A stretch of 64,000 bases of DNA. It comes from an uncultured Planctomycetia bacterium. Lineage in GTDB: Bacteria > Omnitrophota > Gorgyraeia > Gorgyraeales > Gorgyraeaceae. Shown piece by piece: positions 34,123 to 60,971 of the stretch. The notes under the pieces are model-generated. The model ran no database searches and was not told where the DNA came from. It saw only the letters and a list, made by a program, of their open reading frames with translations. Where the stretch lies: assembly GCA_964652265.1 (NCBI GenBank), contig CAZZAL010000004.1, positions 590-64,589 of the forward strand. The letters are read 5' to 3'. The translations under genes were made by a program, and so were the position numbers. The first letter of the stretch is position 1; every line of letters begins with the position of its first letter.

Positions 34123-34123
34123 G

Positions 34124-37367: not shown

Positions 37368-37375
37368 GAAATGAC

Positions 37376-37395: not shown

Positions 37396-37428
37396 CTTTT
37401 AAAAAAATAAAAGACAACTTAAGTTATG

Positions 37429-37456: not shown

Positions 37457-37481
37457 GTAAAAAATAACTTTGCGTTTTTAA

Positions 37482-37889: not shown

Positions 37890-37929
37890 ATTCCCCTCCA
37901 TCTTAAATTTACATACCAAAAGTGTAAAG

Positions 37930-38661: not shown

Positions 38662-38662
38662 G

Positions 38663-39007
38663 TTAAACTATCTCTACAGAGTCCACATTGATCCCGATGC
38701 CAGAGATTACATCGTTAACGTTACTTTTGCACCTCGGGCAACCTTTTAACCCTTCTTGCCCCTTAAATTCAGTACTGCAGTCTTTACACCTAAACCGCGC
38801 CTCAACAGTTTTAAAATTTAATTTCGCATTTTTAAGAAGGCTACTTTTTGTCCGTTCTCTAAAATGAAATTCGAAATGCTCTGGACTGATATGCTCGAGC
38901 TCTCCTATAGATATATTAACACTCTTAACCTTTGATATCTCTTTTTTGTCCCTTAATTTAGCGCTAATCGCGCTTAAGATATCATCCATAATCCCTATCT
39001 CATGCAT
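38663..39007 (-). CDS. hypA: hydrogenase nickel-insertion protein HypA
   Basis: MHEIGIMDDIL N-terminus, plus CKDC...CPRC zinc-site motifs. Confidence 0.85.
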   Translation of the reverse strand: MHEIGIMDDILSAISAKLRDKKEISKVKSVNISIGELEHISPEHFEFHFRERTKSSLLKNAKLNFKTVEARFRCKDCSTEFKGQEGLKGCPRCKSNVNDVISGIGINVDSVEIV

Positions 39008-39061
39008 TGTTTCTCCTTACGGCAAGTTCAAGGCTGAACATTAAACTATATAAACTCAAAA

Positions 39062-41136: not shown

Positions 41137-41342
41137 CTGGTCTCTTCTAATATGCGCAATGTCTCTTCTGCTTCTTTTGGATCAAGTTTTTCTATTGCAA
41201 AACCTGCGTGAACCATCACATAATCGCCTATCTTAGGCCTAGTCAAGAAATTGACAGCGATCCTGCGTTTTACTGTCCCGGCAGAGACCACTGCCCTATC
41301 ACCCTCTATCTTTAAAATCTTCATTGGTATTGCCAAACACAT
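41133..41342 (-). CDS. hypC: hydrogenase maturation chaperone HypC
   Basis: 69 aa with the MCLAIPMKI N-terminus. Confidence 0.9.
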   Translation of the reverse strand: MCLAIPMKILKIEGDRAVVSAGTVKRRIAVNFLTRPKIGDYVMVHAGFAIEKLDPKEAEETLRILEETR

Positions 41343-41344
41343 CT

Positions 41345-42481: not shown

Positions 42482-42542
42482 GACTAAAATAATTACCCAA
42501 ATCTTATAATATTAAAAATGGGTAACTAAAAATAAACTCTTA

Positions 42543-43577
42543 TTAAGTTAACTTGTCTTTTGCTAATCGCGCTACCCTGGTAAGCTTGGCTATTATATCC
42601 TGCGTCAAATCCTCAGAAAGGGTGCCCATCCCGCAGCTTGGCGTGAGTAAAGAATTAGATATCAATAACTTTCGGGGAACTCCTTTTTTCTCCAGACCTT
42701 CAATCTCATCTTTTAATCTAGTAAAAAGTGAACCTTCATCCTCTTTCAACACTGATTTAGAAGTCGGGACAATGCCCCATGCCAGAGCACCGCCTTTCTT
42801 CAAGAATTCCTTTATGTTTTCCGGGTACAGCGAGAAGCCACCGGCATATGAATACGCATCAAAATTGATAATATCGACTTCTGTCTCGGTAAATAACGAC
42901 CAGTCTGTATTTCCGCAACAATGAATACCCGCCAATGCACCCTTCGCATGTATCTTATCTATGAGGGCATTTAAAGCCAGTATTACGTCTTGCCTCTGGA
43001 TATTTACAAAGCTGGAACCAAAACTCGTAAGGTATGGCTCGTCTATAAATATAATGACCTTTCTAGAAACCTCTTTTAGTCTATCGATCTGCCATGCAGC
43101 CTTTATCTCCAGAAGTTTAAGGAAGGCCTCCTTAAGGGTCTCATTATATATTATAGACTTCCCTTTCTCGTCGACGACACTAAGTCCGAAACTCACAGGG
43201 CCCGTGAGATGGCCTTTTGCGTAATCCAGGTCTAATTTTTTTGCTGCGTCCAAAAAAACGTAAAAACCCTCTGCAAAATCTTTCCTTAATGAAAAGGTAT
43301 TATAATCTTCTGAAAGATACACCTCGTATAGCCTGCCCAGCCCCTCGCTCAAATCCCTTCCGGTATCCACATGTACTTTTCTATTTTTCTCGTCGATAAT
43401 AAGCGCAGGTAGCCCCTCGGCATACTGGACATACATGTTTTCCTTAAAACTCCTTTTGGGAAGCTGTGGCCAGAATGGTATGTCAAACGCATCGCATATA
43501 GCCTTAACGCCTCTTGCTGCATCAAGATACGGTAAACTTCCTATCCCGGTTGTAAGAAATTTCTCCTTGATCTTCAT
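42543..43577 (-). CDS. short cobalamin-independent methionine-synthase-like protein (MetE C-terminal/core type)
   Basis: 344 aa. Zn-ligand pattern GIHCCGN ... E ... LLTPSCGMG, as in Meth_synt_2 domains. Confidence 0.6.
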   Translation of the reverse strand: MKIKEKFLTTGIGSLPYLDAARGVKAICDAFDIPFWPQLPKRSFKENMYVQYAEGLPALIIDEKNRKVHVDTGRDLSEGLGRLYEVYLSEDYNTFSLRKDFAEGFYVFLDAAKKLDLDYAKGHLTGPVSFGLSVVDEKGKSIIYNETLKEAFLKLLEIKAAWQIDRLKEVSRKVIIFIDEPYLTSFGSSFVNIQRQDVILALNALIDKIHAKGALAGIHCCGNTDWSLFTETEVDIINFDAYSYAGGFSLYPENIKEFLKKGGALAWGIVPTSKSVLKEDEGSLFTRLKDEIEGLEKKGVPRKLLISNSLLTPSCGMGTLSEDLTQDIIAKLTRVARLAKDKLT

Positions 43578-47676: not shown

Positions 47677-48678
47677 CTAGGTTAACAAACGGCAGGAAGA
47701 ACGTTTTATTAATTCACATTGAAGTTGTGTCTTTTTATTGCCTTTGGACTTTTTAGTTATAATCTTCTGCAATGTCTCTGTCGCAACCATCGCCATCTCA
47801 TGCAAAGGCTGCCTTATAGTAGTAACAGAAACGGGTGAAAAACTAAGAGCCAATGGATTATCATCAAATCCTATGACAGACAGATCGCCAGGAACATTAA
47901 CTCCGCTTTCAATCGCGACTTGTATCGCACCTACAGCCATCTCGTCGCTCGCAGCAAAAATAGCCGTAGGTGGTGTCTTTAATTTTATAAGCTCTTTTGT
48001 AGCCTTGATAGCAGAATCCCTTCCAAAATCCCCATATTTTACATAATTATCCTTTTTTTCTATCTTATTTTTATCAAGTGCCTCCACAAATCCATCCATC
48101 CTGTCTATGGCAACCTGTGATCTTAATTCTCCGGTTATAGTAGCGATTTTAGTATGCCCGAGCTTAACAAGATATTCTACTGCCTTCATGGCTCCTCCGA
48201 TATTATTTATGGCTACGCACGAAACAGGAAGATCCTTTGTAAGATAATTCATAATAACACACGGAATATCCATCTGCAGCACATTGTCCACTTGATCTTC
48301 GTTCTCTATGATATCAGAGAATATCACGCCCTCGACAGCTGACGTATTCAAAAAGGTACCTCCGTTTGTAATATGCAGAAGTAGATCCAGCCTCATCCTT
48401 TCCACTGCAAGGCCAACACCCTGAAGAATCTGAAGCGCGTAAAACGAATGAAATATATCGGCGTATCTAGGAATCACAAGGCCGATAGCATTATTTTGTT
48501 TTGCTGCAAGTCTTTGCGCACTCACATTAGGCCTGAACTTCAGCTTCTTAATCGCGGCCTCAACCCTTGCCTTATTCTCCCTCTTGACAGTAGACAATCT
48601 ATTTACAACCCTAGAAACAGTCGCTATGGAAACTCCTGCTTCTCTTGCCACGTCTTTGATATTGATAATTTTACTCAT
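47677..48678 (-). CDS. LacI-family transcriptional regulator
   Basis: N-terminal HTH IKDVAREAGVSIATVSRVVN plus a periplasmic-binding-protein-like core. ATGA overlap with the upstream secretin gene. Confidence 0.85.
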   Translation of the reverse strand: MSKIINIKDVAREAGVSIATVSRVVNRLSTVKRENKARVEAAIKKLKFRPNVSAQRLAAKQNNAIGLVIPRYADIFHSFYALQILQGVGLAVERMRLDLLLHITNGGTFLNTSAVEGVIFSDIIENEDQVDNVLQMDIPCVIMNYLTKDLPVSCVAINNIGGAMKAVEYLVKLGHTKIATITGELRSQVAIDRMDGFVEALDKNKIEKKDNYVKYGDFGRDSAIKATKELIKLKTPPTAIFAASDEMAVGAIQVAIESGVNVPGDLSVIGFDDNPLALSFSPVSVTTIRQPLHEMAMVATETLQKIITKKSKGNKKTQLQCELIKRSSCRLLT

Positions 48679-50177
48679 TGCAGTTTCTCCCCGGTCCGGC
48701 TCAAGACAGTAGCAGTCACAAATATCAGAAGATTTTTCCTCTCCACGCTGTCTGAGTCTTTCCTGAATAGAGGGCCGAATAAAGGTAGGTCCCCTAAAAA
48801 AGGTGTCTTTGTCTCTACCTTAGTTCTGGTTTCCTTTATCAATCCGCCAAGTACTACTGTATCTCCGTTCTTTACTACTATATTCGTGGTCAAATTCCTT
48901 GTCGTAAATTTAGGGAGCTTAACCTCTCCGCTGTATTGAAATGCATTAGCTGTTGCCTCGCTCACTTCAGGCTTTAGCGTCAATGTTATCATTTCCTTAT
49001 TTCTGCCCACGTTCGGTGTCACCTGAAGTAATATCCCTATGTCCCTTGTCTCAAAACCCTGCGGCACATTCACAAACCTTGTTTCTTTCACGCCATTCAC
49101 TGTATCAAGAAAATCTCCGTCATTATTCAAATCTTCTTTTATCAAAGTAGGTTCATATCTCGACGGATACACATATTCGTTCGCTATCTCTATAGTCGCT
49201 GTGTGGTTATTCAGCGTCGTGATCTTCGGGGAAGAAAGGGTCTTGAGATTTGTTTTTCTCTCCATAGCATGCAAGACCACTGAAAACTGCGGTTTAGTCA
49301 GCATGCCCTGATATGTAAGATTAAGACCTTCGTTCGGAGCTCCCGTAAATGCCATAAAGTTCGAACCACTACCGCTAGATATCTGATTCACTGACTGACC
49401 ATCATCCTTATAAATCGCAAAAGGGCTGTCTAAAGAAAGATTCATACCTAATTCGCTCAGATCTGTTACGTTTACCTCTATAAATCTGGTCTCTATGAGA
49501 ATCTGGGTTGTGTCTATGTCCAGATTGTAAAGTATGTCTTCTATGATCCTTAGATTCGACGGGCTATTTGTAATTATCAGTGCCCCTGTGCGCCCATCCA
49601 GATTGATCTTGGCATCGCTGGGCCACCGCACTGCATCCTCCAGGACATCCTTTATGGTATTGATCTTTGATATACCGGCTGCTCCCCCAAATCCTTCTCC
49701 TGTAGAACTGGCCGTCTTTCCGCTAAACTCTGTAAACATCGCCAGGCCCTGATTTAAATAATAAATCCTGGTCTCCAGATCTTCTTCTTCCATGGCATCC
49801 ATAGTATCCACCCATACCGCATTCTTTTCAATCCTGTATACAAGACCCTGATTTCTAAATATATATTTTAACAGGCTTTCCAGAGTCATATCCTTTACTC
49901 TAATAGTAACCTTTTTGTCTTCGGACTTAACAGTGCTCCCTGTAATTATATTCACTCCTGTCGCATCTGAAAGAAAATCCAGCACATAGTCAAGATTTAC
50001 ATCTCTGAAATCCACTGTTATGGGCGTCTTTAACTTCTCCCGGATCTGGGGGACCTCAACTATAGAATATTTATCTGTGCCCTCGCTACCATTTAAGGAC
50101 TTCACTTCGTAGGCATACGAAGACCCTGTGGAAAAAAGAAAAAAACCAAATAAAATTATACCCACATGCTTTATCAT
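48675..50177 (-). CDS. secretin (PilQ/GspD family), 500 aa
   Basis: Signal peptide, N-terminal STN-like domain (VDFRDVNLDYVLDFLSDATGVNII), and C-terminal secretin motif TPFLGDLPLFGPLFRKDSDSVERKNLLIFVTATVL. Confidence 0.85.
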   Translation of the reverse strand: MIKHVGIILFGFFLFSTGSSYAYEVKSLNGSEGTDKYSIVEVPQIREKLKTPITVDFRDVNLDYVLDFLSDATGVNIITGSTVKSEDKKVTIRVKDMTLESLLKYIFRNQGLVYRIEKNAVWVDTMDAMEEEDLETRIYYLNQGLAMFTEFSGKTASSTGEGFGGAAGISKINTIKDVLEDAVRWPSDAKINLDGRTGALIITNSPSNLRIIEDILYNLDIDTTQILIETRFIEVNVTDLSELGMNLSLDSPFAIYKDDGQSVNQISSGSGSNFMAFTGAPNEGLNLTYQGMLTKPQFSVVLHAMERKTNLKTLSSPKITTLNNHTATIEIANEYVYPSRYEPTLIKEDLNNDGDFLDTVNGVKETRFVNVPQGFETRDIGILLQVTPNVGRNKEMITLTLKPEVSEATANAFQYSGEVKLPKFTTRNLTTNIVVKNGDTVVLGGLIKETRTKVETKTPFLGDLPLFGPLFRKDSDSVERKNLLIFVTATVLSRTGEKLQ

Positions 50178-52735
50178 TGCACCAAAGACTCCTCTTGGAG
50201 CTCAATAGCATCAGCTATTACGCTTTCTTCTTTATTCAAAACTGTTGCCGTGACAAATATCAGAAGATTCCTACGCTCTACACCTTCGTAACTCTTTTTG
50301 AACAGACCGCCTACAATCGGCAGGTCTCCCAGAAAAGGTACCTTTGTCTTTGTAGTAGTGCTGCTTTCACTTATCAGGCCCCCCATGACAACCGTCTCTC
50401 CGCTTTCAACAATAACACTCGTGCTCAAATTTCTGGTTTTAAAGTTTGGTATCGAAACGCTACCTGAATATGAATATGACGAAGTAGTAGAGTCCTGTTC
50501 GCTCACCTCCGGAGTCAAGGCAAGTGTAATAGTCTTATTATCGACTCCCACGCTTGGCTTAACATGTAAAAGTATACCCACATCCCTTGTTACAAAATCC
50601 TGGGGTATGTTCGCCCATTCTGTCTCTCCTGCATCGTCAAAATCTCCATCGCCATTTATATCATACTGTACCAGACTCACTTCATATCTGGTAGGATATA
50701 TATATTCATCTATAACCTCTATGGTAGCTGCCTGATTATTCAATGTAGTTATCCTGGGAGCGGAAAGGGTTTTTACATTCTGTTTTTGCTCGAATGCGTG
50801 CAATACTGCTTGAAACTGCGGATGCGACAATATCCCCTGATACGTCAAATTAAAACCATAATCCTTGTTGCTAAAATCTGAAAAATCTACTCCGCTCGAA
50901 GAGGCAAATCCATGCTTGTTCTGTTTCGCATTGTTCTGACTAAGGCCAAAATCACTATTCAGTTTCCATTCAAAGCCCAATTCATCAGTATCTGTAATCT
51001 TTATTTCTAAAAATCTCGCCTCTACTGAAATCTGCGTAGGGGTAACATCAAGATTGTAGAGTAGATTTTCTATAATCTCCAGATTCGAAGGGATATTGTT
51101 TACTATAAGAGCTCCTGTCCTATCATCCACAGTCAATTTTGAATCCTTCGGCCAATCCACTGATTCCTCAAGGATATCTTTTATAGTACTAATCTCTGTC
51201 TCGGCAGAACTCCCGCCTTCTTCATCATACGTCCCTGAAAATTCTGCAAACCTGCCTACACCTTGATCCAAAAAATACACCCTTGTCTCTACTTGCTCAT
51301 TGTCCAGCTCTTCCTTTGTAGCCACCCAGACTGCATCTTCCTCTATCCTGTAAATAAGATCCTGCGATTTTAGGATATACCTCAATGCCTCCTCAAGCGG
51401 CATATCCTTTATCTTTATAGTAACCTTTTTCTCCTCCATGTCTATCTCGCCCGAAGGAATGATATTGACCCCGGTAGCATCAGAAAGAAAACTCAAGACA
51501 TAGTCCAGCTCTATGTCTTTAAAATCAACGCTGATCGGAATCTTTAATCTTTTCCTGATCTCAGGAACCCTTACAAGCGTCATCTTATTTTCTTTTTCCA
51601 GAATGCCATATTTTTCCTCAGGGAGTATATGTTTTTTAGCCACCTCTAGGAGCATCTTCTCCTCTGTAATCTCCCTTGCTTTCTTCAATGCTTTTTCCTC
51701 TATCTTTACTTTTTCAATTTCTACATAGTGCTTTATATCCTTAAATCTTTCGTTCTCCGGAAACTCTAACATGGCAGTGCTGAGCGTTTTTTCTGCGTCT
51801 TGGAACCTACGCTCTCCAGCATACGCCCTTATGGCATCCATCAAGCCCTCTACCCTGGCTATCTTTTCTCTTCTTTCCTTAATCCTTAATCTTTCTTCAA
51901 ATATCTTTTTAAGTCTTACTTTTTCTTTTTCTTTTCTTTCTCGCTCAATTTTTCTGCGCTTCTCTTCTATTTCCCTTTGCCTTTCTTCGCGCTCCATCTC
52001 AATCCTGGCAAACCTTGCAGCCTCCATCTTGGCCAAGAGTTCCTTTTCTTCTCCTTTTTTTATCTCCTTTTGAGCCTTATCTATCAATGCCTCGGCTTCA
52101 ATCACCAACCTACTTCTAGAATCAACTTCTTTTATCTTTTTAAATTCTACAATAGCCGCTGGATAATTCCCTTTTTTATAATATTTCATGGCACGCTCAT
52201 ATGTATCTCTGGCTGCCTGGGCTAACCGATATGCCTTCTTTTTCCTGGCCTCTTCTATAGTCATTCGCTTTTCTTTTTCTTCTTTTAAAATCCTTTCCTC
52301 TTGTTCTTTTGCCAATCCTTCTGCTTCTTTCTGCGCTATACGTTTCGCCTCGTCCACGACATCCCTTTTCATCCTAGCCCATTTTCTGTCTTCCAGTATA
52401 AGTAATTCCTTCATCCTTGCCCTGGATTTCTCAATGTAGATCTCTGCGAAAGGCGTAAAATAGGCCTCATTCTGAGATTTTTCTGTCTTGATAAGGGCTT
52501 CGAATACAATGACCGCCTCTTTATACTTTCCAGATTCAAACAAAAACATGGCCTTTTCAAAATATTTCTTCAAATCAGCCTTTGAAAGCCTCGTTACCCT
52601 GCTACCGGGGGAAGAATCCACGAATGCAGATGCTGGGGTACACAAAGACCAGCACAGCGATATTATAAAAATCAAAATGCTTATTGTGTAAACCAACGCC
52701 TTTCTCATTTCTCCCGCCTTCAAGACTTTGTTCAA
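50174..52735 (-). CDS. secretin (PilQ/GspD family) with a ~385-aa N-terminal TPR plus Glu/Arg/Lys-rich helical extension, 853 aa
   Basis: The C-terminal ~470 aa are paralogous to the downstream secretin (VPFLGDLPIVGGLFKKSYEGVERRNLLIFVTATVL). The N-terminus has TPR-like repeats and long ER/K tracts. Confidence 0.85.
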   Translation of the reverse strand: MNKVLKAGEMRKALVYTISILIFIISLCWSLCTPASAFVDSSPGSRVTRLSKADLKKYFEKAMFLFESGKYKEAVIVFEALIKTEKSQNEAYFTPFAEIYIEKSRARMKELLILEDRKWARMKRDVVDEAKRIAQKEAEGLAKEQEERILKEEKEKRMTIEEARKKKAYRLAQAARDTYERAMKYYKKGNYPAAIVEFKKIKEVDSRSRLVIEAEALIDKAQKEIKKGEEKELLAKMEAARFARIEMEREERQREIEEKRRKIERERKEKEKVRLKKIFEERLRIKERREKIARVEGLMDAIRAYAGERRFQDAEKTLSTAMLEFPENERFKDIKHYVEIEKVKIEEKALKKAREITEEKMLLEVAKKHILPEEKYGILEKENKMTLVRVPEIRKRLKIPISVDFKDIELDYVLSFLSDATGVNIIPSGEIDMEEKKVTIKIKDMPLEEALRYILKSQDLIYRIEEDAVWVATKEELDNEQVETRVYFLDQGVGRFAEFSGTYDEEGGSSAETEISTIKDILEESVDWPKDSKLTVDDRTGALIVNNIPSNLEIIENLLYNLDVTPTQISVEARFLEIKITDTDELGFEWKLNSDFGLSQNNAKQNKHGFASSSGVDFSDFSNKDYGFNLTYQGILSHPQFQAVLHAFEQKQNVKTLSAPRITTLNNQAATIEVIDEYIYPTRYEVSLVQYDINGDGDFDDAGETEWANIPQDFVTRDVGILLHVKPSVGVDNKTITLALTPEVSEQDSTTSSYSYSGSVSIPNFKTRNLSTSVIVESGETVVMGGLISESSTTTKTKVPFLGDLPIVGGLFKKSYEGVERRNLLIFVTATVLNKEESVIADAIELQEESLVQ

Positions 52736-52758: not shown

Positions 52759-53313
52759 CTACTCTTCGCTTGGCCCTTCTTCTTTCTTTTCCTGTTCCCT
52801 TTTGGAAGAGCTCAATATGACCTCTTCCCCGCCTTTTTTCCTAAGCACTACCTCTTTCTCATCTATGGTAACCACAAGAAAATCTCCTACCATATCGCCT
52901 TCCTGTACAAAAAAACTTTTTCCGGTACCTTGGTCTTCAATAACAACCATGATCTTTGAACCCATCATTGCCTTACCTTTATATTTAAGTATTACCTTTT
53001 TTGGTTCTTCCTTTTTAAGAGGTATCACTTCTACCTTTTTAATCTCTGAAACATCCCTAACCCTAAAAAATGGGCTTCTTTTCAAAAGAAGTTCATACAT
53101 ATCCAGGTTATCTTCTGTCTTAAGCATCTTAACATCCAATTTATCTTTTTTCGCCTTTTTCTTGGCTCTGCTTTTTTTCGTCGCCACCTCGATCTCTTTT
53201 AATAAATCCTTTGTCGCCCCTTCCTTTTTTCCCTGTGAAACAAAGCCAAAAACCAGCATACCTATAAATACAGCAGCAAGCGGCCAGAAAACAAGCTTTT
53301 CTTTTACTATCAT
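52759..53313 (-). CDS. PilP-like (or GspC HR-domain-like) pilus assembly protein
   Basis: 184 aa. TM anchor, Lys-rich linker, and C-terminal beta domain ...KGKAMMGSKIMVVIEDQGTGKSFFVQEGDMVGDFLVVTIDEKEVVL. Confidence 0.5.
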   Translation of the reverse strand: MIVKEKLVFWPLAAVFIGMLVFGFVSQGKKEGATKDLLKEIEVATKKSRAKKKAKKDKLDVKMLKTEDNLDMYELLLKRSPFFRVRDVSEIKKVEVIPLKKEEPKKVILKYKGKAMMGSKIMVVIEDQGTGKSFFVQEGDMVGDFLVVTIDEKEVVLRKKGGEEVILSSSKREQEKKEEGPSEE

Positions 53314-54071
53314 TCTGTTGCCCTCGCTACTCTAAACGTGCTTAAAACCAAGCTCGCCTCTATATCACCAGTCTCCATGTCGCTGCTTTTTATATGCACC
53401 TCTTTTACTGAAACCACCGGACTCTGATTCTTGAGCTCCAATAAAAGATCTATAAGAGTCTCTGTGTCTGTCCTTATCGAAATCTGAACAGGTATCTCAG
53501 TATAAAATACCTCTTTACTTAAAGGTTCTATATAATCTATTGACTTGAGAGGCTTTATGGCAGAAAATTCTATCAGTTCGCTTTTCAATAAAATATCCAC
53601 CACAAACTCTGCTGTCTCAAGCTGCCTTAAAAGAGTATCGACCATGCGTTCTTTAGGGAGTCCATCGCCAAATCCCAGATTTTCAGGTATCTTTATTTCG
53701 CTCGATGCTGCTTCGTCAGAAAATCTCTTCATCGAACCATGAAGTCTCTCTATAAAATAAAGGCCTGCCTCTGTGCTGGCCTCTGAAATCCGATTCTTTT
53801 CAGGATCCACAAAATCTGCGAGTTCTTTTAGTTTATTCTCTATCGCCTCATTTTGTTCTTCAAGTTTATCAAAGCCTTCTTTTGAAGGTAATGAGCCTGT
53901 GCGCGCAATGTACTTTTTTATATCTCCGGTCTTGCGCTCTAATTCTTCTTCTAGGATAGTACTACCTTCTTTTAAAAATGGGTTCAGGACAAAAAAGTAT
54001 AACGCCGCTATAACGCCAACAGCTATCACGCCCTGTTTCAAGATCGCCCTTTCTCTCGGAGAATTTAACAT
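53310..54071 (-). CDS. PilO-like pilus assembly protein
   Basis: 253 aa. N-terminal TM helix, coiled coil and a C-terminal ferredoxin-like segment. Position matches the pilM-N-O-P-Q order. Confidence 0.55.
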   Translation of the reverse strand: MLNSPRERAILKQGVIAVGVIAALYFFVLNPFLKEGSTILEEELERKTGDIKKYIARTGSLPSKEGFDKLEEQNEAIENKLKELADFVDPEKNRISEASTEAGLYFIERLHGSMKRFSDEAASSEIKIPENLGFGDGLPKERMVDTLLRQLETAEFVVDILLKSELIEFSAIKPLKSIDYIEPLSKEVFYTEIPVQISIRTDTETLIDLLLELKNQSPVVSVKEVHIKSSDMETGDIEASLVLSTFRVARATE

Positions 54072-54074: not shown

Positions 54075-55601
54075 CTATTCCCCTCCTACCACAACATCCA
54101 TAGTTATGCTAAACCGAACTATCTCCTCGCCTGTATCCTCATCTGTCTCTATAGAAGAGGATACGGGTTTTACATCCTTAAAAATAGGTGATGACTTAAG
54201 ACTTGAAACAAAATTATTAACAGACTGATATGATAAGGCCCTGCCGCTTAAATCTAGCCTCCCGGGCCCACTCTTCTCTAAAGAAACTATACCCGAAAGA
54301 TCTGTTACCCACAACTCTTTAGGCAATATTTCTGAGGTTACATCCAAGACATCAAGCCATATAGCCCTGGAATCCGCCACCTGATATAATATATTAATCT
54401 TTTCCTTAAGTATATCCTCGGCGTCCTGCATCTTCTTTATCTTTGGCTCATAGGTCCTATATATCCCCAGCATCTCATCGATCTTTCCCATTTTCATTCT
54501 CTTTACAGAATAATCCTGCCTTGTAAAAATTGAAAAACTCACCAGTATCAACACTGCCATGGCTGCTGAAAAACGCGCGTAAAGGGACTTCTGAGCAAAA
54601 AGATGTCTTTCTGTCGTTATCTCTTTTAAAAAATTTACCTCTATTCTTAATGGTGTAAGGCCTCTAAGCGCAAGCCCGATCGCTACTGCAAGCTGGTTTT
54701 TGACGCTCTCTTCTCCTACATTCGAAAATATATCCTTGGATATCCTTAATTTTCTGAACGGGTCCATGACTTTTGTTTTTAGTCCAAACTTTGAAGCCAA
54801 TTTTGACTCCAACCCATCTATTAAACTACCTCCACCTGTCAATATCAACTCGTCCGGTTTGGTTTCCTCTTTTGATTCCTCTGTACCCTGCATGGAATAA
54901 TATTCTATTGACCGCTCTATCTCGCCCATAAACTCCTCGATGCCCTGCTCGCCAGTCTCCTGGATCTTCTCGCTTGCAATCGGAAAACTTCTTATCCAGA
55001 TATTTCCCTGCTTAAATATAACCAGGTTACTGGCCTTTGCTCCGATATCAAGAATAAGGCCAAGATTCCTACCATCACAATCCTCGTTGAATGACAGAGA
55101 ATTATATAAAGCGATAGGAGAAACATCGATTAATGTGGCTGATAACTTTATGGCCTTCAGTTTCAAAACAATATCTTCTACAAGGTTTTTCTTTATCGCT
55201 ACTATAACCGCCTTTTTTGTGATCTTCTTATCTCTATCCAACAAGGACCAATCCCATGCCACCTCATTCAGGGGAAACGGTATCTGGTTCTGCGCCTCAA
55301 ATTTCATTGTCTGCTTTAGTTTTTCCTCTTTCATCTGGAGGAGTTTCACAAACCTTACAAAGACAGACTGGCCTCCCGCTGAGATATTTACCTGACGCGC
55401 CTTTATATTATTTTCTGAAAATAACTGCGCTATTAATTGAAAAATAGTCTTATCTTTGCCTGTCTTTAAATCCTTTGGTATTTCTTTTATTCCAAATTTA
55501 TGCAATATAATAGAGTCTCCGCTCTTCTTAAGCTCCACAAGCTTTATATAGCGACTACCTATATCCAACCCTATTGAAGATTTTACTCTTCCAGACATCA
55601 T
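54075..55601 (-). CDS. PilM-PilN fusion (actin-like ATPase domain + TM + PilN-like domain)
   Basis: 508 aa. SIGLDIGSRYIKLVELKK is the PilM N-terminus. A TM helix lies near residue 345, followed by a coiled coil and a fimbrial-assembly-like domain. Confidence 0.75.
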   Translation of the reverse strand: MMSGRVKSSIGLDIGSRYIKLVELKKSGDSIILHKFGIKEIPKDLKTGKDKTIFQLIAQLFSENNIKARQVNISAGGQSVFVRFVKLLQMKEEKLKQTMKFEAQNQIPFPLNEVAWDWSLLDRDKKITKKAVIVAIKKNLVEDIVLKLKAIKLSATLIDVSPIALYNSLSFNEDCDGRNLGLILDIGAKASNLVIFKQGNIWIRSFPIASEKIQETGEQGIEEFMGEIERSIEYYSMQGTEESKEETKPDELILTGGGSLIDGLESKLASKFGLKTKVMDPFRKLRISKDIFSNVGEESVKNQLAVAIGLALRGLTPLRIEVNFLKEITTERHLFAQKSLYARFSAAMAVLILVSFSIFTRQDYSVKRMKMGKIDEMLGIYRTYEPKIKKMQDAEDILKEKINILYQVADSRAIWLDVLDVTSEILPKELWVTDLSGIVSLEKSGPGRLDLSGRALSYQSVNNFVSSLKSSPIFKDVKPVSSSIETDEDTGEEIVRFSITMDVVVGGE

Positions 55602-55786
55602 CTTGTCCTTCCCATTATGCCTCTGAGCTTTTTTATCTCATCTTCTGTATATTCACGCCACCCATTCAGCACATTCCTCTTGGGTCTTGGAAATACCTTC
55701 TTATTCTCATAGCGAATCAAAGTCTGTTTGGATATCCCCAGAAATTGCGCAGCCTCTGTTGCTGAATAGTATCTTGCTTTATTCAT
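55598..55786 (-). CDS. small MerR-superfamily / excisionase-type HTH protein (62 aa)
   Basis: YYSATEAAQFLGISKQTLIRYENKKVFP is an HTH_17/MerR-like motif. It overlaps pilMN by 4 nt. Confidence 0.7.
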   Translation of the reverse strand: MNKARYYSATEAAQFLGISKQTLIRYENKKVFPRPKRNVLNGWREYTEDEIKKLRGIMGRTR

Positions 55787-55998: not shown

Positions 55999-57801
55999 CT
56001 ATTCTTTCTTCCAGAAGCGAAATGGTCGCCTCTTGGGTATTCCTGGCTTTACAACACCCTCACCTATAGTCCAGGTCCTTTCTTCTGGCACTGGGTCTAT
56101 CTCATCAGTATCGATCTGGCCATTATTATTCACGTCCTTTGCTGCCTGGACCTTAAAATAATGATTACCTTCTGTCAAATCCTGCTTCTTCACAGATCTA
56201 TCTACAGACCAATCTGACCATTCTTCATCGTCAAACTTCCATCTAAAGACACAGCCATCCACAGTAGACTTAAAGGTAAATAGTGCCTCAGTAGATCTTG
56301 TCACCATGCTCGGTCCACTGGTTATTATGGTATCCGGGGCTATTATAATAAGCTCTATAGTATCGCTGAATATCTGCGATTCATTACCAGCAGTATCCTT
56401 GAACTTGACATAGACCTTTCTGGTGCCGCTTATCGCCGGAAGCATCCAATTGTCCCTCTTCGCGCTAAAGGTCTCCCATGACTCTGTATCAAAAACACCA
56501 TCATTTGATATAGACATGCTTTCGACATCTGTAGTAGAATCGCCTGCTGTAAGGATAAGATCTACATATACAGAATTCGTAAGGGCATCCTGATTATTTA
56601 CAATTATCGAACCCGTAGGCCCTTTTGTATCAACGACGAAACTCCATACAAGAGGTGCGGTTTTGTTCCCGACAAGGTCAGAGACTTGGAGAGCTATAAC
56701 ATTATCACCTTCGCTTAAACGAACAGATGGTATATACACAACCTCTCCTGCGCCATCGTCATAAGTCGCGCCAACGCTTGATTTATTTATAGTCATATCT
56801 ATGCCATCCGAGTTCACACCGCTCTTATCATCTGAAACTCTGATGGAAATCACAGGTACATCTGTCGATATGATAGAACTATTAGAAGGAGAATATGCTC
56901 CCACAACTGGAACACCTCTATCTATCCATATCTCAAAAGATGCCATATCGCTCCAGTTGCCGCCTGTGTTCTGCGCTGTAAGGTTAAAAACTCTCACGCC
57001 ATCTTCCAGTAAATCACCAGGGGTCTGATAAGAAACATCATTTGTGTCAATCTGATCATCAGGCGTGCTACCCCATGCATAACTATAACCGACTACCCTC
57101 GCGCCAGTAACCGGATACTCCCAGTACATGTAAGGCGTAGGACAATCCTGCCATAATTTAGCAGAAATATCTTCGCCTGCAGGAGAAACCTTTGCCCAGA
57201 TAACAGGGACCTCCATGTCTGAGGTAATAAGCCTGAACCCGTCTATCGCAGTCTCCCATCCTGAATAATCATAACCATCATTAACCCTGACCCGCCACCT
57301 GTAAGTAACAGATGCCTCTTCTGTAGGAAGTACAGGAGTAGTAAAGCTATCATCATCTGATTCTATAAGTCCTGAATCCACTATATTAGTAACAAAATTA
57401 TTCTTTGAGACTTGAACTTGATAATAAATCTGTGTATCAGCATCTTTATCATTATATGTCCACGATAATGTAGGAGTATCATCATCTATCAACGCGCCAT
57501 CATTATAAGATGCTATGCTAACATTGGGTATGGTATTCATGGCAGAAAGCCATCCTGAATATATCTTATAGCTAGTCCCAGTGGCAACCGAGGTGCCTAC
57601 AGGAGATCCAACGCTATTCTCAGCACTATAAGTTGCCGAGCTGCCGCTTGAGCCTCCGCCGTCCAGCATGCCAGTATGGAGTTTATAATTTTCACTGCTA
57701 GAGAGGCTGGCAGAGCTGACTCCTGAAAAAATAAAAAAAGCCGCTACAAAAAATACAGCGGTTTTAATAAAAACATCTTGTTTACCTTTTAAAGTATCCA
57801 T
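55999..57801 (-). CDS. secreted multi-domain (Ig/FN3-like) protein, adhesin-like
   Basis: 600 aa. Signal peptide, a Gly/Ser-rich N-terminal module with repeated S-x-Y motifs, then several ~90-aa beta-sandwich-like segments. Confidence 0.55.
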   Translation of the reverse strand: MDTLKGKQDVFIKTAVFFVAAFFIFSGVSSASLSSSENYKLHTGMLDGGGSSGSSATYSAENSVGSPVGTSVATGTSYKIYSGWLSAMNTIPNVSIASYNDGALIDDDTPTLSWTYNDKDADTQIYYQVQVSKNNFVTNIVDSGLIESDDDSFTTPVLPTEEASVTYRWRVRVNDGYDYSGWETAIDGFRLITSDMEVPVIWAKVSPAGEDISAKLWQDCPTPYMYWEYPVTGARVVGYSYAWGSTPDDQIDTNDVSYQTPGDLLEDGVRVFNLTAQNTGGNWSDMASFEIWIDRGVPVVGAYSPSNSSIISTDVPVISIRVSDDKSGVNSDGIDMTINKSSVGATYDDGAGEVVYIPSVRLSEGDNVIALQVSDLVGNKTAPLVWSFVVDTKGPTGSIIVNNQDALTNSVYVDLILTAGDSTTDVESMSISNDGVFDTESWETFSAKRDNWMLPAISGTRKVYVKFKDTAGNESQIFSDTIELIIIAPDTIITSGPSMVTRSTEALFTFKSTVDGCVFRWKFDDEEWSDWSVDRSVKKQDLTEGNHYFKVQAAKDVNNNGQIDTDEIDPVPEERTWTIGEGVVKPGIPKRRPFRFWKKE

Positions 57802-57854: not shown

Positions 57855-60800
57855 CTAGCGGTTGAATACGGCCCAAATCTTCTTTTCGCTGAGCACCTTG
57901 CCTTTTCCCAGCGTCTGCGCGGTTGCGATAATCCTGTATATATCAGAATGAATCGTTACTAGGTTCGATATCTGCTTAAACCTTATCTTTTTATCAGAAT
58001 CGTCCGAACCCAGTGCATTACCTGAAATCAGATCTCCTATACCAAGCCGCAAACCATTTTTATTTCCAAAGACCCTGTTCCCTACGATGCTATCCGCAAT
58101 CTGGTTATCCATGCCAGGCATGACGCCAAGGACCTTGCTTGAGGCCGTATTGACATTTATCCTACCATCGATATAGTTCGCAGGATCCAGCCTTATGTAA
58201 TCAAAATGAGCACCGCCTGTCTTTGAGGCATTCTTTATTTTTAATTCCAGGATACCGGACGGCGTGGATATATCGCTTCCAGTTCCTACCTCTATATTTC
58301 CAAATAAAATACTCCCGTTTGGCCCTGGAGTAAGAGGAGGCGTAAAAGGTGTCCATACATCATCTACCAGTCGCAACGATACCGCAATCTCTTCTTCCTC
58401 TTCTCCAAATATCCGCAATGTATAATATCCGTCCATTAGTCCATCTTTTTGTTCCCAGCGCCACGTACCGACTGAATCCACGTTACCACTCTCAAAGTGA
58501 TCTGTCAAAGGCGCTGCACGCTGAAGGATCTTCCATCCGCCCGCAGCCCCAGGGACAACGTGCCATTCTGCCTCTAACCTGATTCCTGATACTGTCAATC
58601 TATCAGCTATTTTGGAAACATCCTCTAGCGGCATGTCCTCCCATTCGTCAAAACCTAGCGGCACAAACGCTATCTCTCCTACTGAAGAAAAATTTTTGTT
58701 TTTTACAATGACCTCTGTCACATCATGCTCTATTATCTCCTCGCCTATCTCCTCTGTCATCCCCTCATTATCGTTCGGAAGGGATGGCGTAGCCCCCTCT
58801 TCTGCGAGTGAGGAATACCAATTATCTGCTATACCATTCGAATTCGAATCCGCCACATAACTCGGATCTGATTTTTCCAGGCTTTTGTTTTCAGAAAACG
58901 TCCCGCTGAAATATTCAGCCTGATCAACGATATGTCCCATGGGATCTTTTAATGTTATAATATTCCCTCCTGCCTCAGGCTCATCAGAAAGTAGATCTGA
59001 ATCAGGTGTAACTGCCCTTACAAAATGCAGCTCTGCCGCTTTTCTATCCTTGCCCCATATGGAAAAAAATGATATACCATTACCATCGATACCGTCCTGC
59101 GAGTCATTCTTGTCGACACAAAGCGAAAGATGCTCATACGATCCAATAACAGTCCCAAGAGGAATAGAGGCAGGCCAGCCTTGTTTACTCGGACCTTCAA
59201 CGCTCCAACCTCCAAGGTTTACGTCTCTAGGCGTAAGATTTACCAATTCTATGTATTCAGCATCCGGCTCCTGTCTTAACTCAATCGAACCAAAATATGT
59301 CGAACCAGAGGAACGATTATTCTGTATCCTCACTGTAATCTTTCCACCAGAAACACTAATTACCCTGCCACCCCCGAATAAATTCCCATCTAGCATGCCT
59401 CTTGAATGGGCTCCATTTATCTCTACATCACCTACATATTCGCCTGTCATACCGGCAAAAACCTTTACATAATAATCCCCGTCAGACACATCTTTCCACG
59501 TCCAACTCCCCTCGCCTGCCTTGCCGCTTTTTGGCTCATTATTTTGATAATAATTACCCTGCAGCTCCCAATCACCACCAGGTTCCTGACCGCTAAAAAT
59601 ACCCCTAGTTACAAGCGGCCTCACCATGATCTCGTTTATCCTTATACCCTCAACACCTCTTAGCTCTAAAGAGGAAAATCCTTCCTGTCCCAATCTTGGA
59701 TATAACTCTAAATGCGAAAAATAAGAGACTTCGTCAGAGCTATTTTTGATCTCCAGGTTTAATGCTCTATTTTCAAACTGCATTGCTCCTAACCTTAATA
59801 TCTCTCCATGTTTTACTGAACCCTGAACCATGTCATTAACTGTAACATCTCCCACTAACTCATCCTTTACACCAAACATACCTATATAATACTCGCCTTC
59901 AGGCAAATTGATCCATGTAAGCGCGAGCGCTGTGCCATCTTTAACGCTGCTTTCGTAATGTCCGCTTTTCCATACCCAATCTCCCAGCGGCCCCCTGTTA
60001 ATGACAGAAAGACGATTGTATAATTTTGTTACAACGCTCTGGCTGAAATCGTCATCGCAGGCATCTATTATATTAACAGCTTTTTGAAACGGTTCCCGTA
60101 CACCTGCATCTTCAAGAAGCACTGCCAGAGATACAGCATCCATAAAATTTATGTTTTTGCGCGGCCGACCTTCTACATCCAGATTTTTATCAACCGAATA
60201 TGATGTTATATAGGCATACATCTCTTTAAATACATCATCCTTTATTGATCTTATCTTCGCGATCTCGAACGGAGTCTCGAATACACTGTCGTCACCATAC
60301 ACCCTTTGAGCAGAAAACTCCATGGGTTCATCAATGCCCTCACCAGCCTCATCTATAATGCCGTCTGCATTATTGTCTATACCATCTGAATCCATGATCC
60401 TCTGATTATTATCATCATCAAAACCAGCTTCGCCTGGCTTACCATCAAAGCCATATCTATAATCCAGGATATCTTCGTATGCCTTCTGCGAATCATCTAA
60501 TTGAAAAGAGGCAAGGAATTCTTGGAGGTCAACTTCGTAAGGGGTCCATCCTTCTGTGATTTTTAAAGGAGAGGTATTATGCTTCGTGGCAACGTTTATA
60601 TTTAAAAGACTCGTCTCGTCCCGAACCAAAACCGCATAACGGCCGATTGCCTCATCCATCTCGTCATAGACATATATCCACTTTGAATCTCCCTCGCCAT
60701 CGCCATCATTATCCACATCTCCTCCGCTAAAGAGCGTATACCATTTATCTTCAAAGCTATCTATGTCACTATCGTCCTCTTTTAAAACTGCCTGGGCATA

Positions 60801-60971
60801 ACTAACCCCTGCTTCTGCAAGATAGGACGCGGCAGTCGCCTCTATAAAGTTAGCAGCAGCCTTTAGTTCCAGCCGCATGGTAAAGGCAAACGACACCGCC
60901 ATTATGCCTGCGACTGCCAAAACACTAACTACCAAGATCAAGGCAACGCCTTTATTGCTATTATTCTTCAT
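57855..60971 (-). CDS. giant GspK/PilX-like minor pseudopilin (1038 aa) with inserted Ca-binding-like, lamin-tail-like and repeated beta-sandwich modules
   Basis: The N-terminus KGVALILVVSVLAVAGIMAVSFAF...YLAEAGVSYAQAVL...VRDETSLLNINVA looks like a GspK N-domain. The C-terminus INVNTASSKVLGVMPGMDNQIADSIVGNR looks like the GspK helix-hairpin-helix. The middle carries DSDGIDNNADGIIDEAGEGIDEP and IRINEI...EYIELVNLTPRDVNLGGWSV (LTD-like). Confidence 0.7.
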   Translation of the reverse strand: MKNNSNKGVALILVVSVLAVAGIMAVSFAFTMRLELKAAANFIEATAASYLAEAGVSYAQAVLKEDDSDIDSFEDKWYTLFSGGDVDNDGDGEGDSKWIYVYDEMDEAIGRYAVLVRDETSLLNINVATKHNTSPLKITEGWTPYEVDLQEFLASFQLDDSQKAYEDILDYRYGFDGKPGEAGFDDDNNQRIMDSDGIDNNADGIIDEAGEGIDEPMEFSAQRVYGDDSVFETPFEIAKIRSIKDDVFKEMYAYITSYSVDKNLDVEGRPRKNINFMDAVSLAVLLEDAGVREPFQKAVNIIDACDDDFSQSVVTKLYNRLSVINRGPLGDWVWKSGHYESSVKDGTALALTWINLPEGEYYIGMFGVKDELVGDVTVNDMVQGSVKHGEILRLGAMQFENRALNLEIKNSSDEVSYFSHLELYPRLGQEGFSSLELRGVEGIRINEIMVRPLVTRGIFSGQEPGGDWELQGNYYQNNEPKSGKAGEGSWTWKDVSDGDYYVKVFAGMTGEYVGDVEINGAHSRGMLDGNLFGGGRVISVSGGKITVRIQNNRSSGSTYFGSIELRQEPDAEYIELVNLTPRDVNLGGWSVEGPSKQGWPASIPLGTVIGSYEHLSLCVDKNDSQDGIDGNGISFFSIWGKDRKAAELHFVRAVTPDSDLLSDEPEAGGNIITLKDPMGHIVDQAEYFSGTFSENKSLEKSDPSYVADSNSNGIADNWYSSLAEEGATPSLPNDNEGMTEEIGEEIIEHDVTEVIVKNKNFSSVGEIAFVPLGFDEWEDMPLEDVSKIADRLTVSGIRLEAEWHVVPGAAGGWKILQRAAPLTDHFESGNVDSVGTWRWEQKDGLMDGYYTLRIFGEEEEEIAVSLRLVDDVWTPFTPPLTPGPNGSILFGNIEVGTGSDISTPSGILELKIKNASKTGGAHFDYIRLDPANYIDGRINVNTASSKVLGVMPGMDNQIADSIVGNRVFGNKNGLRLGIGDLISGNALGSDDSDKKIRFKQISNLVTIHSDIYRIIATAQTLGKGKVLSEKKIWAVFNR

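What the first reader, a model, noticed from the sequence alone, without database searches (positions are those of the whole stretch)
48675..52735. Two tandem, paralogous secretin genes with an overlapping stop and start
- The 500-aa secretin and the C-terminal ~470 aa of the 853-aa secretin align along their whole length. Examples: VDFKDIELDYVLSFLSDATGVNII vs VDFRDVNLDYVLDFLSDATGVNII, and VPFLGDLPIVGGLFKK...RRNLLIFVTATVL vs TPFLGDLPLFGPLFRK...RKNLLIFVTATVL.
- The two genes are joined by an ATGA overlap, implying roughly equal co-expression.
- Known T2SS, T4P and T3SS secretins are homo-oligomers made from a single gene.
- Tandem paralogues suggest either a hetero-oligomeric outer-membrane channel or two alternative pores. 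The long form would carry the periplasmic extension.
Basis: partly seen in the sequence, partly recalled or inferred. Interest (0 to 1): 0.6.

Follow-up and report, generated by a model that had tools for sequence, protein, structure and literature searches.

The report
Tandem long and short secretin genes
An uncultured Omnitrophota bacterium carries two diverged copies of its outer-membrane pilus-channel gene back to back in one operon, one with a long helical arm and one without; the pairing recurs across the phylum and could build a mixed-subunit pore, which no solved secretin does, but that is not shown.

Summary
On the minus strand a long secretin gene (50174-52708, 844 aa; the ORF runs on to a TTG at 52735) overlaps a 500-aa secretin gene (48675-50177) by ATGA. 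The two are 53% identical over 466 aa.

- **Both copies are working genes.** Each has a signal peptide and the N0/STN, N3-like and secretin domains. dN/dS is 0.12 for each.
- **Setting.** They lie in one operon of a PVC-type type IV pilus-like machine with a single set of partner genes. The nearest named families are Akkermansia Amuc_1098 and Amuc_1101.
- **The pair is conserved.** Every related locus with enough flanking DNA shows long then short. The same pair occurs in three distant, higher-GC lineages. Some relatives carry only one type.
- **Consistent differences.** The short copy lacks the ~340-aa TPR/helical arm. Its gate-region acidic loop is remodelled.
- **What is not shown.** A mixed long/short ring is plausible, because PulD and N-truncated PulD co-assemble in vitro, but it is untested. 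Two separate pores remain a strong rival.
- **The ATGA overlap is weak evidence.** Four of the six junctions in this operon overlap the same way, including short secretin/LacI.

I found no published description. I rate it a new variant of a known kind, of moderate to high interest.

The parts
50174..52708 (-). Long secretin gene (844 aa from ATG 52708; the ORF extends to TTG 52735 = 853 aa). Layout: signal peptide, TPR/long-helix arm, N0/STN, N3-like domain, secretin domain.
   Evidence: Pfam Secretin E 9e-41, STN, TPR_2. The AF2 model has mean pLDDT 70.8.
51599..52624 (-). N-terminal extension found only in the long copy (aa 29-370). It holds three TPR-like hairpins separated by very long helices (aa 85-178, 232-298, 321-359).
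   Evidence: It matches consensus TPR proteins in the PDB (E 2e-11). It is conserved among orthologues (top-residue frequency 0.7-0.85 in the hairpins) and has dN/dS 0.17.
50204..51598 (-). Core of the long copy, homologous to the whole mature short copy (N0/STN, N3-like, secretin barrel).
   Evidence: 53% identity over 466 aa; core dN/dS 0.08.
50630..50662 (-). Acidic loop DINGDGDFDDA in the long copy. It resembles a DxDxDG/EF-hand calcium site (my reading of the sequence, not tested). It is an insertion at the position that aligns with PulD 'VPVLTGS' (gate region).
   Evidence: The ancestral-type motif is present in 69 of 70 long-clade proteins and in single-copy relatives, but in 0 of 103 + 0 of 120 short forms.
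48675..50177 (-). Short secretin gene (500 aa). Layout: signal peptide, N0/STN (aa ~50-130), N3-like (175-238), secretin domain (240-495). It has no N-terminal arm.
   Evidence: The AF2 model has mean pLDDT 62.9. The best Foldseek PDB hit is V. cholerae PilQ 6w6m (E 1e-21).
49080..49133 (-). Remodelled loop DLNNDGDFLDTVNGVKET in the short copy. It carries a 5-aa 'TVNGV' insertion that is specific to short paralogues.
   Evidence: The insertion motif occurs in 72/103 window-clade short forms and 65/120 high-GC short forms, but in 0/70 long forms and 0/148 family representatives.
50174..50177 (-). ATGA stop/start overlap between the long and short secretin genes.
   Evidence: It is conserved in 7 of 11 orthologous loci and in L027.
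52759..53313 (-). 184-aa membrane-anchored protein, a candidate GspC/PilP-like partner of the secretin N0 domain.
   Evidence: weak NCBIfam GspC_delta hit, E 2e-5, far below cut-off. Its position is conserved.
53310..54071 (-). PilO/GspM-like protein (253 aa).
   Evidence: T2SSM_b 28 bits, PilO 22.8 bits.
54075..55601 (-). PilM-PilN fusion protein (508 aa).
   Evidence: PilM_2 E 8e-35, PilN E 6e-12; TIGR01175 143.9 bits, above the 133 cut-off; Amuc_1101 family 224 bits.
55598..55786 (-). 62-aa MerR/HTH_17-type protein, the first gene of the operon. A promoter-like site lies at 55917-55889.
   Evidence: Similar small HTH genes stand at the head of distant loci.
55999..57801 (-). 600-aa secreted or anchored Ig-like repeat protein.
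   Evidence: Ig_Rha78A_N, Big_13. Its position is conserved.
57855..60971 (-). 1038-aa GspK-like giant minor pseudopilin with a lamin-tail domain.
   Evidence: LTD, HHH_3; T2SS_GspK E 1e-12 on aa 7-168, below cut-off.
47677..48678 (-). LacI-family regulator gene. It overlaps the stop of the short secretin by ATGA and is conserved downstream of the pair.

Best explanation
Shown:
- The two genes are ancient tandem paralogues of the outer-membrane secretin of a PVC-type (Akkermansia Amuc_1098-like) type IV pilus / type II secretion-like machine in a Candidatus Omnitrophota bacterium.
- Related genomes carry either a single long TPR-secretin or this pair.
- In the pair, the downstream copy lacks the ~340-aa TPR/long-helix arm and has a remodelled acidic gate-region loop.
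- Both copies have stayed under equally strong purifying selection, in the same order, in one operon with a single PilMN/PilO/GspC-like set.

Inferred (the mechanism I think most likely):
- Both proteins are exported and co-assemble into one mixed secretin ring.
- The long subunits supply periplasm-spanning, pilotin-like TPR arms and the acidic gate loops.
- The short subunits complete the barrel without crowding the periplasm.
- Both dock on the same inner-membrane platform through their very similar N0 domains.
For: - **Paralogy and integrity.** The two are 53% identical over 466 aa. Both carry Secretin and STN domains and predicted signal peptides. Both keep the most conserved secretin motif, xPFLGDLPxxGxLF(R/K)K...NLLIFVTATVL, which aligns to PulD VPLLGDIPVIGALFR.
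- **Selection.** dN/dS is 0.119 for each gene against L026. Within-clade divergence is equal, 0.244 against 0.235. There are 176 shared conserved columns and 40 fixed paralogue-specific columns.
- **Age.** There is no recent gene conversion: third-position identity is 0.51 and the longest identical nucleotide run is 17 nt.
- **Linkage.** Long-then-short was seen in all 11 loci from the GTDB genome scan with upstream DNA, and also in L024, L026, L032 and L033.
- **Pairs in distant lineages.** L027 (GC 57%, ATGA overlap, followed by LacI), L028 (GC 59%) and L029 (GC 53%).
- **One operon, one partner set.**
- **Shared docking region.** N0 is the region most alike between the paralogues, with 0.8 consensus identity at aa 56-75.
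- **Feasibility.** Full-length PulD and N-terminally truncated PulD form mixed multimers in every ratio in vitro (PMC4604470).
- **Pilotin-like arm.** The TPR head of Akkermansia PilQ was already compared to pilotins by its describers (PMC4960237).
Against: - There is no direct evidence of co-assembly. Multimer modelling was not available here.
- Every solved secretin found by the PDB sequence search is listed there with a single secretin sequence per ring.
- In Myxococcus the three secretin paralogues have distinct functions, and the nozzle preparations isolated there contained only one ring type, GspD (PMC12475490).
- Relatives carry only a long secretin (L020, L021, L022, L031) or, within a 3.3-kb contig, only a short one (L030). 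Each type is therefore probably self-sufficient.
- The ATGA overlap is not specific to the pair.
- The ATPase, platform and major-pilin genes lie outside the window, so a second machine that uses one of the two pores cannot be excluded.
Confidence: 0.4

Rival explanations
1. There are two separate homo-oligomeric pores. After duplication the copies specialised. For example, the long TPR-secretin might serve the pilus, while the short one, with its altered gate loop, might serve a different cargo, DNA uptake, or another type IV filament system encoded elsewhere. They would stay in one operon only for co-regulation.
For: - This is the default for secretin paralogues: the Myxococcus GspD, PilQ and third paralogue have distinct functions, and the nozzle preparations there held only GspD rings (PMC12475490).
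- All solved rings found contain one secretin sequence.
- Single-type relatives exist.
- The gate-region loop, which should shape channel properties, differs consistently between the paralogues.
- Omnitrophota encode several type II/IV-like loci (bioRxiv 10.1101/2023.11.21.568195).
Against: - The pair shares one operon with only one PilMN/PilO/GspC-like set.
- Order and adjacency are strictly conserved, with frequent stop/start overlap, across deep lineages.
- The two N0 domains stay very similar, as expected for a shared partner.
- In none of the 15 window-type loci examined is either copy missing; one long copy (L014) carries a frameshift.
Confidence: 0.35
2. The roles are asymmetric. The short protein forms most or all of the channel. 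The long protein is a low-copy assembly, targeting or anchoring factor: a secretin-shaped pilotin that nucleates or positions the ring through its TPR arm.
For: - TPR lipoproteins act as pilotins for type IV pilus secretins (my own knowledge of PilF/PilW/Tgl). Ottman et al. compared the Amuc_1098 TPR head to pilotins (PMC4960237).
- The short copy has no arm and no S-domain.
- The arm is conserved and under selection.
Against: - The long copy keeps a full secretin barrel that is more constrained than its arm (dN/dS 0.08 against 0.17).
- Single long secretins work alone in relatives, and a TPR-secretin is by far the most abundant outer-membrane protein in Akkermansia.
- The long gene is upstream, and its stop is translationally coupled to the short gene's start, which does not suggest low expression.
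Confidence: 0.15
3. One copy is redundant or decaying, and the tandem pair is a neutral leftover of duplication.
For: In one MAG (L014) the long copy is split by a 1-nt deletion.
Against: - Both copies have dN/dS 0.12 and equal within-clade divergence.
- Each clade is separated with 200/200 bootstraps and holds 71-104 sequence clusters.
- The paralogues have diverged to near-saturation at synonymous sites, yet both remain intact.
- The L014 break is a single indel in an otherwise 78%-identical open frame. That fits an assembly error better than decay.
Confidence: 0.03

Closest known systems
Akkermansia muciniphila PilQ (Amuc_1098) and the Amuc_1098-1101 pilus-like cluster of the PVC superphylum
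   Same: This is the best NCBIfam match for both secretins (NF042912, 204 and 216 bits). The PilM-like neighbour matches Amuc_1101 (224 bits), and the PilO-like neighbour matches Amuc_1100 weakly. Amuc_1098 is a 907-aa protein with an N-terminal TPR region and a C-terminal secretin domain, located in the outer membrane (PMC4960237). That is the same architecture as the long copy here.
   Different: All scores are far below the equivalog cut-offs (750 and 650 bits). The source describes a single PilQ gene in Akkermansia; I did not examine that locus myself. Here a second, arm-less paralogue follows the long gene.
Type IVa pilus secretin PilQ (e.g. V. cholerae 6w6m) and T2SS secretin GspD/PulD (6hcg, 5wln)
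   Same: The N0 / N3-like / secretin-barrel fold is shared. Foldseek probability is 1.0, with 6w6m the top hit. Sequence E-values are 1e-24 to 4e-25. The partners are PilM, PilN, PilO/GspM, GspC-like and GspK-like proteins.
   Different: Both copies score below the curated cut-offs for PilQ (188/180 against 284) and GspD (197/209 against 351). No AMIN domain was hit and no S-domain is modelled. An acidic loop is inserted in the gate region. The solved rings are all built from one secretin gene.
In-vitro mixed multimers of full-length PulD and N-terminally truncated PulD(28-42/259-660)
   Same: A long secretin and an N-terminally shortened version co-assemble into SDS-resistant rings in all ratios, seen as a 13-step ladder (PMC4604470). 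This shows that a long/short mixed ring is physically feasible.
   Different: That is a laboratory construct with identical barrels. Here the two barrels are natural, 53% identical paralogues with fixed differences, and co-assembly has not been shown.
Dispersed secretin paralogues in one genome (Myxococcus xanthus GspD, PilQ, Mxan_RS15055)
   Same: Several diverged secretins are encoded and expressed in one cell (PMC12475490).
   Different: Those genes are unlinked and have distinct functions, and the isolated nozzle preparations held only GspD rings. Here the two genes are adjacent, usually overlapping, and sit in one operon with one set of partner genes.

Membership tests
Secretin superfamily (Pfam PF00263) | C-terminal secretin domain above the Pfam gathering score | tested here: met
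   Long copy 139.7 bits and short copy 138.2 bits, against a cut-off of 27.5. The fold is confirmed by Foldseek hits to PilQ, GspD, InvG and pIV at probability 1.0.
Secretin superfamily (Pfam PF00263) | Periplasmic N0 (STN) and N1/N3-type ring-building domains | tested here: met
   STN scores 29.2 and 33.0 bits against a cut-off of 28.4. Secretin_N scores 25.4 and 23.3 bits, just below its cut-off of 28.2, but the AF2 models show mixed alpha/beta modules at aa 50-130 and 175-238 of the short copy.
Secretin superfamily (Pfam PF00263) | Assembly into a 12-15-mer ring in the outer membrane | not testable with these tools
   Only monomer models were possible. Signal peptides and the conserved LGDLPxxGxLF motif are present in both copies.
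T2SS secretin GspD (NCBIfam TIGR02517, equivalog) | Score at or above the curated cut-off (351.35 bits) | tested here: not met
   197.4 bits (long) and 208.9 bits (short).
Type IV pilus secretin PilQ (NCBIfam TIGR02515, subfamily) | Score at or above the curated cut-off (284.35 bits) | tested here: not met
   187.8 bits (long) and 180.4 bits (short). No AMIN domain appears among the Pfam hits.
Amuc_1098 family type IV pilus outer membrane protein (NCBIfam NF042912, equivalog) | Score at or above the curated cut-off (750 bits) | tested here: not met
   203.8 and 216.1 bits. It is the best-scoring family for both copies but far below the cut-off.
Amuc_1098 family type IV pilus outer membrane protein (NCBIfam NF042912, equivalog) | Architecture: N-terminal TPR region followed by a C-terminal secretin domain | tested here: met
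   Met for the long copy only: TPR_2 27.9 bits against a cut-off of 27, TPR hits in the PDB and the model. The short copy lacks this region.
Type IV pilus-like assembly machine (PilMNOP-secretin subcomplex) | PilM, PilN and PilO-type partners encoded next to the secretin | tested here: met
   PilM TIGR01175 scores 143.9 bits against a cut-off of 133. PilN PF05137 scores 45.9 against 22.8, and PilO PF04350 scores 22.8 against 22. The GspC/PilP-like assignment of the 184-aa protein is weak (E 2e-5).
Type IV pilus-like assembly machine (PilMNOP-secretin subcomplex) | Extension ATPase, platform protein, major pilin and prepilin peptidase | tested here: inconclusive
   None was found among the window ORFs I examined (about 24.8-64 kb); the ORFs at 1-24.8 kb were only listed, not annotated. 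In the single-copy relative L020 the cluster also holds GspF, three GspE-type ATPases and a GspJ-like pseudopilin. The rest of this genome was not available.

The most novel reading that the evidence does not exclude
Omnitrophota build a naturally hetero-oligomeric secretin. The ring would mix a long, TPR-armed subunit with an arm-less subunit that has a different gate loop, both encoded by an ancient tandem gene pair. It would be the first secretin channel made from two gene products, and an example of added complexity arising through duplication in an outer-membrane machine.
Probability: 0.38. Interest if true: 0.8.

Novelty: new variant of a known kind. Interest (0 to 1): 0.6.

Why it matters
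- **It would change a basic assumption.** Secretins are described as homo-oligomeric rings in type II and III secretion, type IV pili and filamentous phage export. A conserved, co-transcribed long/short pair would be the first natural candidate for a two-subunit secretin.
- **It bears on an open structural problem.** How a 12-15-fold outer-membrane ring couples to an inner-membrane platform of lower symmetry, and how bulky periplasmic extensions fit in, is unresolved. A ring with arms on only some subunits is one possible solution.
- **It is still informative if the pores are separate.** The pair would then be a clean natural experiment: same operon and same partners, different N-terminus and gate loop. 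It could show which secretin parts set cargo or gating specificity.
- **It is directly testable.** Co-expression of the two genes in a laboratory host would do it.
- **The organisms are of interest.** Omnitrophota are ultra-small bacteria proposed to be predatory (bioRxiv 10.1101/2023.11.21.568195), whose surface machines are thought to mediate prey contact.

Tried and rejected
- **Pseudogene or decay:** rejected by dN/dS 0.12 for both genes and equal within-clade divergence.
- **Recent duplication or gene conversion in this genome:** rejected. Third-position identity is 0.51, and no identical nucleotide tract exceeds 17 nt.
- **ATGA overlap as a sign of 1:1 stoichiometry:** rejected. The same overlap joins MerR/PilMN, PilO/184-aa protein and short secretin/LacI.
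- **Dating the duplication by trees:** only partly successful.
  - Within the window's clade the two paralogue clades are each supported 200/200.
  - Distance trees never unite short forms from different deep lineages (0-1/200).
  - They sometimes pair the L028 copies with each other (181/200 with 20 states; 68/200 with Dayhoff-6 recoding).
  - A 5-aa 'TVNGV' insertion shared only by short forms of the low-GC and high-GC clades argues the other way, for a single origin.
  - No maximum-likelihood program was available, so single versus repeated origin stays unresolved.
- **Charge complementarity between paralogue domains:** the differences were small and not diagnostic.
- **Orthology test at 38 paralogue-specific sites in distant pairs:** the signal was weak. 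Short forms matched 10-11 short-like sites against 6-7 for long forms.
- **Genome and metagenome scans:** the metagenome scan with P0221 returned only 2 loci, both of the window type. The GTDB genome scan returned 13 loci.
- **Literature searches** for hetero-oligomeric, tandem or paralogous secretins, and for Omnitrophota secretins, found no description of this pair.


Full report
**1.

- The minus strand carries an ORF at 50174..52735 (853 aa from a TTG) followed at once by an ORF at 48675..50177 (500 aa).
- The junction reads gtgcaATGAtaaag, so the stop of the first gene and the ATG of the second share four bases.
- BLASTP of the two products gives 53% identity and 75% positives over 466 aa, E = 6e-180. 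The match runs end to end through the mature short protein, with 13 gap positions.
- Both hit Pfam Secretin (E 9e-41 and 3e-40) and STN. Both hit Secretin_N just under its threshold. The long one also hits TPR models in its first 340 residues.
- No third secretin lies in the window.
- The true start of the long gene is probably the ATG at 52708 (844 aa). Gene callers used that start on independent assemblies of the same sequence, and orthologues begin to align there.

**2. Where it sits**

- The window comes from a Candidatus Omnitrophota bacterium (PVC group). The nearest named relatives of both proteins are Omnitrophota MAGs, including Ca. Gorgyraea atricola.
- The two genes close an apparent seven-gene operon that starts at a good promoter-like site (TTGACA-17-TATAGT, 55917-55889). 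In order it encodes:
  - a 62-aa MerR-type HTH protein;
  - a PilM-PilN fusion;
  - a PilO/GspM-like protein;
  - a 184-aa weakly GspC-like protein;
  - the long secretin;
  - the short secretin;
  - a LacI-family regulator.
- Upstream lie a 1038-aa GspK-like giant pseudopilin and a 600-aa Ig-repeat protein.
- NCBIfam places the secretins, the PilM-like protein and (weakly) the PilO-like protein nearest the Akkermansia Amuc_1098, Amuc_1101 and Amuc_1100 families. All are well below the curated cut-offs.
- Amuc_1098 is a 907-aa TPR-plus-secretin protein shown to sit in the outer membrane. Its authors compared the TPR head to pilotins (PMC4960237). The long copy here therefore has the PVC-type architecture.
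- Neither copy reaches the GspD or PilQ cut-offs.
- I found no ATPase, platform or major-pilin gene in the part of the window I examined (about 24.8-64 kb). ORFs at 1-24.8 kb were only listed.

**3. Anatomy**

- AF2 models were built from alignments of 78 and 76 sequences and reached mean pLDDT 63 and 71. The low-confidence parts are loops expected to order only in a ring.
- Both copies show the same core: signal peptide, N0/STN, a linker, one N3-like domain, and the double-walled secretin sheet. Neither has an S-domain.
- Foldseek matches the short model to PilQ, BfpB, PulD, InvG and pIV at probability 1.0.
- The long copy adds three TPR-like hairpins separated by single helices of about 94, 67 and 39 residues. 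By simple geometry a 94-residue helix is about 14 nm long, enough to cross much of a periplasm.
- The arm matches consensus TPR proteins. It is conserved among orthologues and under selection (dN/dS 0.17).
- Both copies keep the hallmark motif xPFLGDLPxxGxLF(R/K)K...NLLIFVTATVL, which aligns to PulD VPLLGDIPVIGALFR.

**4. A consistent internal difference**

- At the position that aligns with PulD 'VPVLTGS', both proteins carry an insertion. From my memory of GspD structures this is the central-gate hairpin.
- In long copies and in single-copy relatives the insertion is a nearly invariant acidic loop, D-[ILV]-N-G-D-G-D-F-[DE]-[DE]-A. It occurs in 69 of 70 long-clade proteins and resembles DxDxDG/EF-hand calcium sites. 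That reading comes from the sequence and is not tested.
- No short copy has this version (0/103 in the window clade, 0/120 in the high-GC family).
- Short copies instead carry a variant followed by a 5-aa 'TVNGV' insertion. The motif is found in 72/103 and 65/120 short forms, 0/70 long forms and 0/148 family representatives. Others have lost the loop altogether.
- Beyond this loop, 40 core columns are fixed differently in the two clades and 176 are conserved in both. N0 is the most similar stretch.

**5. Both copies are maintained**

- Against a relative 92-94% identical (L026), dN/dS is 0.119 for each secretin. That is within the range of the neighbouring genes (0.09-0.20).
- Mean within-clade distances are 0.244 for short forms and 0.235 for long forms.
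- Synonymous positions between the two copies are near saturation, and there is no conversion tract.
- One MAG (L014) has the long copy broken by a single-base deletion in an otherwise intact frame. This is more likely an assembly error.

**6. The pair is conserved and old**

- In all 11 loci from the GTDB genome scan with upstream DNA, the long gene directly precedes the short one. Seven have the ATGA overlap; the others have 1-59 nt spacers or a possible 11-nt overlap.
- The same holds in L024, L026, L032 and L033.
- The whole gene order, from the giant pseudopilin to LacI, is kept.
- Three much more distant lineages also have a pair:
  - L027 (GC 57%): a 775-aa TPR-secretin, then a 517-aa secretin with an ATGA overlap, then LacI.
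  - L028 (GC 59%).
  - L029 (GC 53%): followed by bioB, which in the window lies just past LacI.
- The L027 short form belongs to a family of more than 120 sequence clusters, whose named members are high-GC Omnitrophica MAGs.
- Other relatives have one long secretin followed by a non-secretin gene (L020, L021, L022, L031). One has a short secretin with no secretin next to it on a 3.3-kb contig (L030).

**7. Origin**

- Within the window's clade the two paralogue groups are each monophyletic (200/200 bootstraps). Single-copy long secretins fall outside them, with moderate support (139/200).
- At paralogue-specific sites the single-copy proteins look more like the long copy. The short copy is therefore the derived one.
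- Across deep lineages, distance trees never join the short forms (0-1/200). They sometimes join the two copies of one lineage.
- Within-genome paralogue identity (43-53%) is not lower than same-type identity across lineages (42-46%).
- The short-specific 'TVNGV' insertion shared by the low-GC and high-GC short families points the other way, to a single ancient duplication.
- I could not resolve this without likelihood methods. Either answer, one ancient pair kept for a long time or repeated origin, implies that the arrangement is selected for.

**8. Mechanism**

- *Shown:* the two are intact, diverged, co-oriented secretins, probably co-transcribed, with one partner set.
- *Most likely (inferred, about 0.4):* the two co-assemble into one ring.
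  - The long subunits contribute the TPR/helical arms and the acidic gate loops.
  - The short subunits fill the barrel.
  - The near-identical N0 domains dock on the same GspC/PilP-like partner.
- Feasibility is documented. Full-length and N-truncated PulD mix freely into SDS-resistant multimers (PMC4604470).
- *Main rival (about 0.35):* two separate homo-oligomeric pores with different gates, for different cargo or a second filament system. This is the norm for secretin paralogues (PMC12475490). It is consistent with each type occurring alone in some relatives.
- *Third option (about 0.15):* the long protein is mainly an assembly or anchoring factor.
- *Least likely (about 0.03):* decay of one copy.

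**9. What is known**

- Searches for hetero-oligomeric, tandem or paralogous secretins, and for Omnitrophota secretins, found nothing on this pair.
- Two Omnitrophota papers discuss type II/IV-like loci beside giant genes. Neither mentions tandem secretins.
- All 22 distinct solved secretin sequences found in the PDB search are listed there with a single secretin sequence per ring.

**10. Verdict**

- The ATGA argument is weak, because four of the six junctions in the operon overlap in the same way.
- The finding is a new variant of a known kind: a PVC-type pilus secretin present as a conserved long/short gene pair.
- Its interest lies in the testable possibility of the first two-gene secretin ring.

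Noticed in passing
window 50630-50662 (-) and 49080-49133 (-): There is an acidic loop, DINGDGDFDDA, resembling a DxDxDG/EF-hand calcium site, in the gate region of the long secretin. It is near-invariant in long and single-copy relatives. In every short paralogue it is either replaced by a variant with a 5-aa 'TVNGV' insertion or deleted.
   Followed up: partly
window 47677-48678 (-): A LacI-family regulator gene overlaps the stop of the short secretin by ATGA. It is conserved directly downstream of the pair, even in the distant high-GC locus L027. What it regulates is unknown.
   Followed up: partly
window 57855-60971 (-): This is a 1038-aa GspK-like minor pseudopilin with a lamin-tail domain and a C-terminal helix-hairpin-helix motif. 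It is about three times the profile length of the GspK model (307 positions). Homologues of 831-1027 aa sit in the same place in related loci (L020, L021, L024).
   Followed up: no
window 55598-55786 (-), promoter-like site 55917-55889: A 62-aa MerR/HTH_17-type protein is the first gene of the pilus operon. Similar small HTH genes head the equivalent clusters in distant relatives (L020, L021, L022).
   Followed up: no
family representatives P0192, P0194, P0195, P0198, P0203: Close relatives of this secretin core carry N-terminal extensions of 1100-1860 aa, for total lengths of 1632-2330 aa. That is far longer than any secretin in the PDB hit list.
   Followed up: no
L014 about 6930-6950: The long secretin of one MAG is split by a single-base deletion in the codons for GRFAEF. 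The rest of the frame is intact, so this is probably an assembly error rather than a pseudogene.
   Followed up: yes
window about 25226-43577 (-): The flanking genes encode subunits that look like a membrane-bound, Mrp-linked [NiFe] hydrogenase, together with HypA/C/D/E/F maturation genes. Biotin synthesis genes (bioB, bioF, bioD) lie next to the pilus operon. The assignments for 25-38 kb are my reading of the translated ORFs and were not scanned against any family library. The bioB neighbourhood recurs beside the secretin pair in L029.
   Followed up: no
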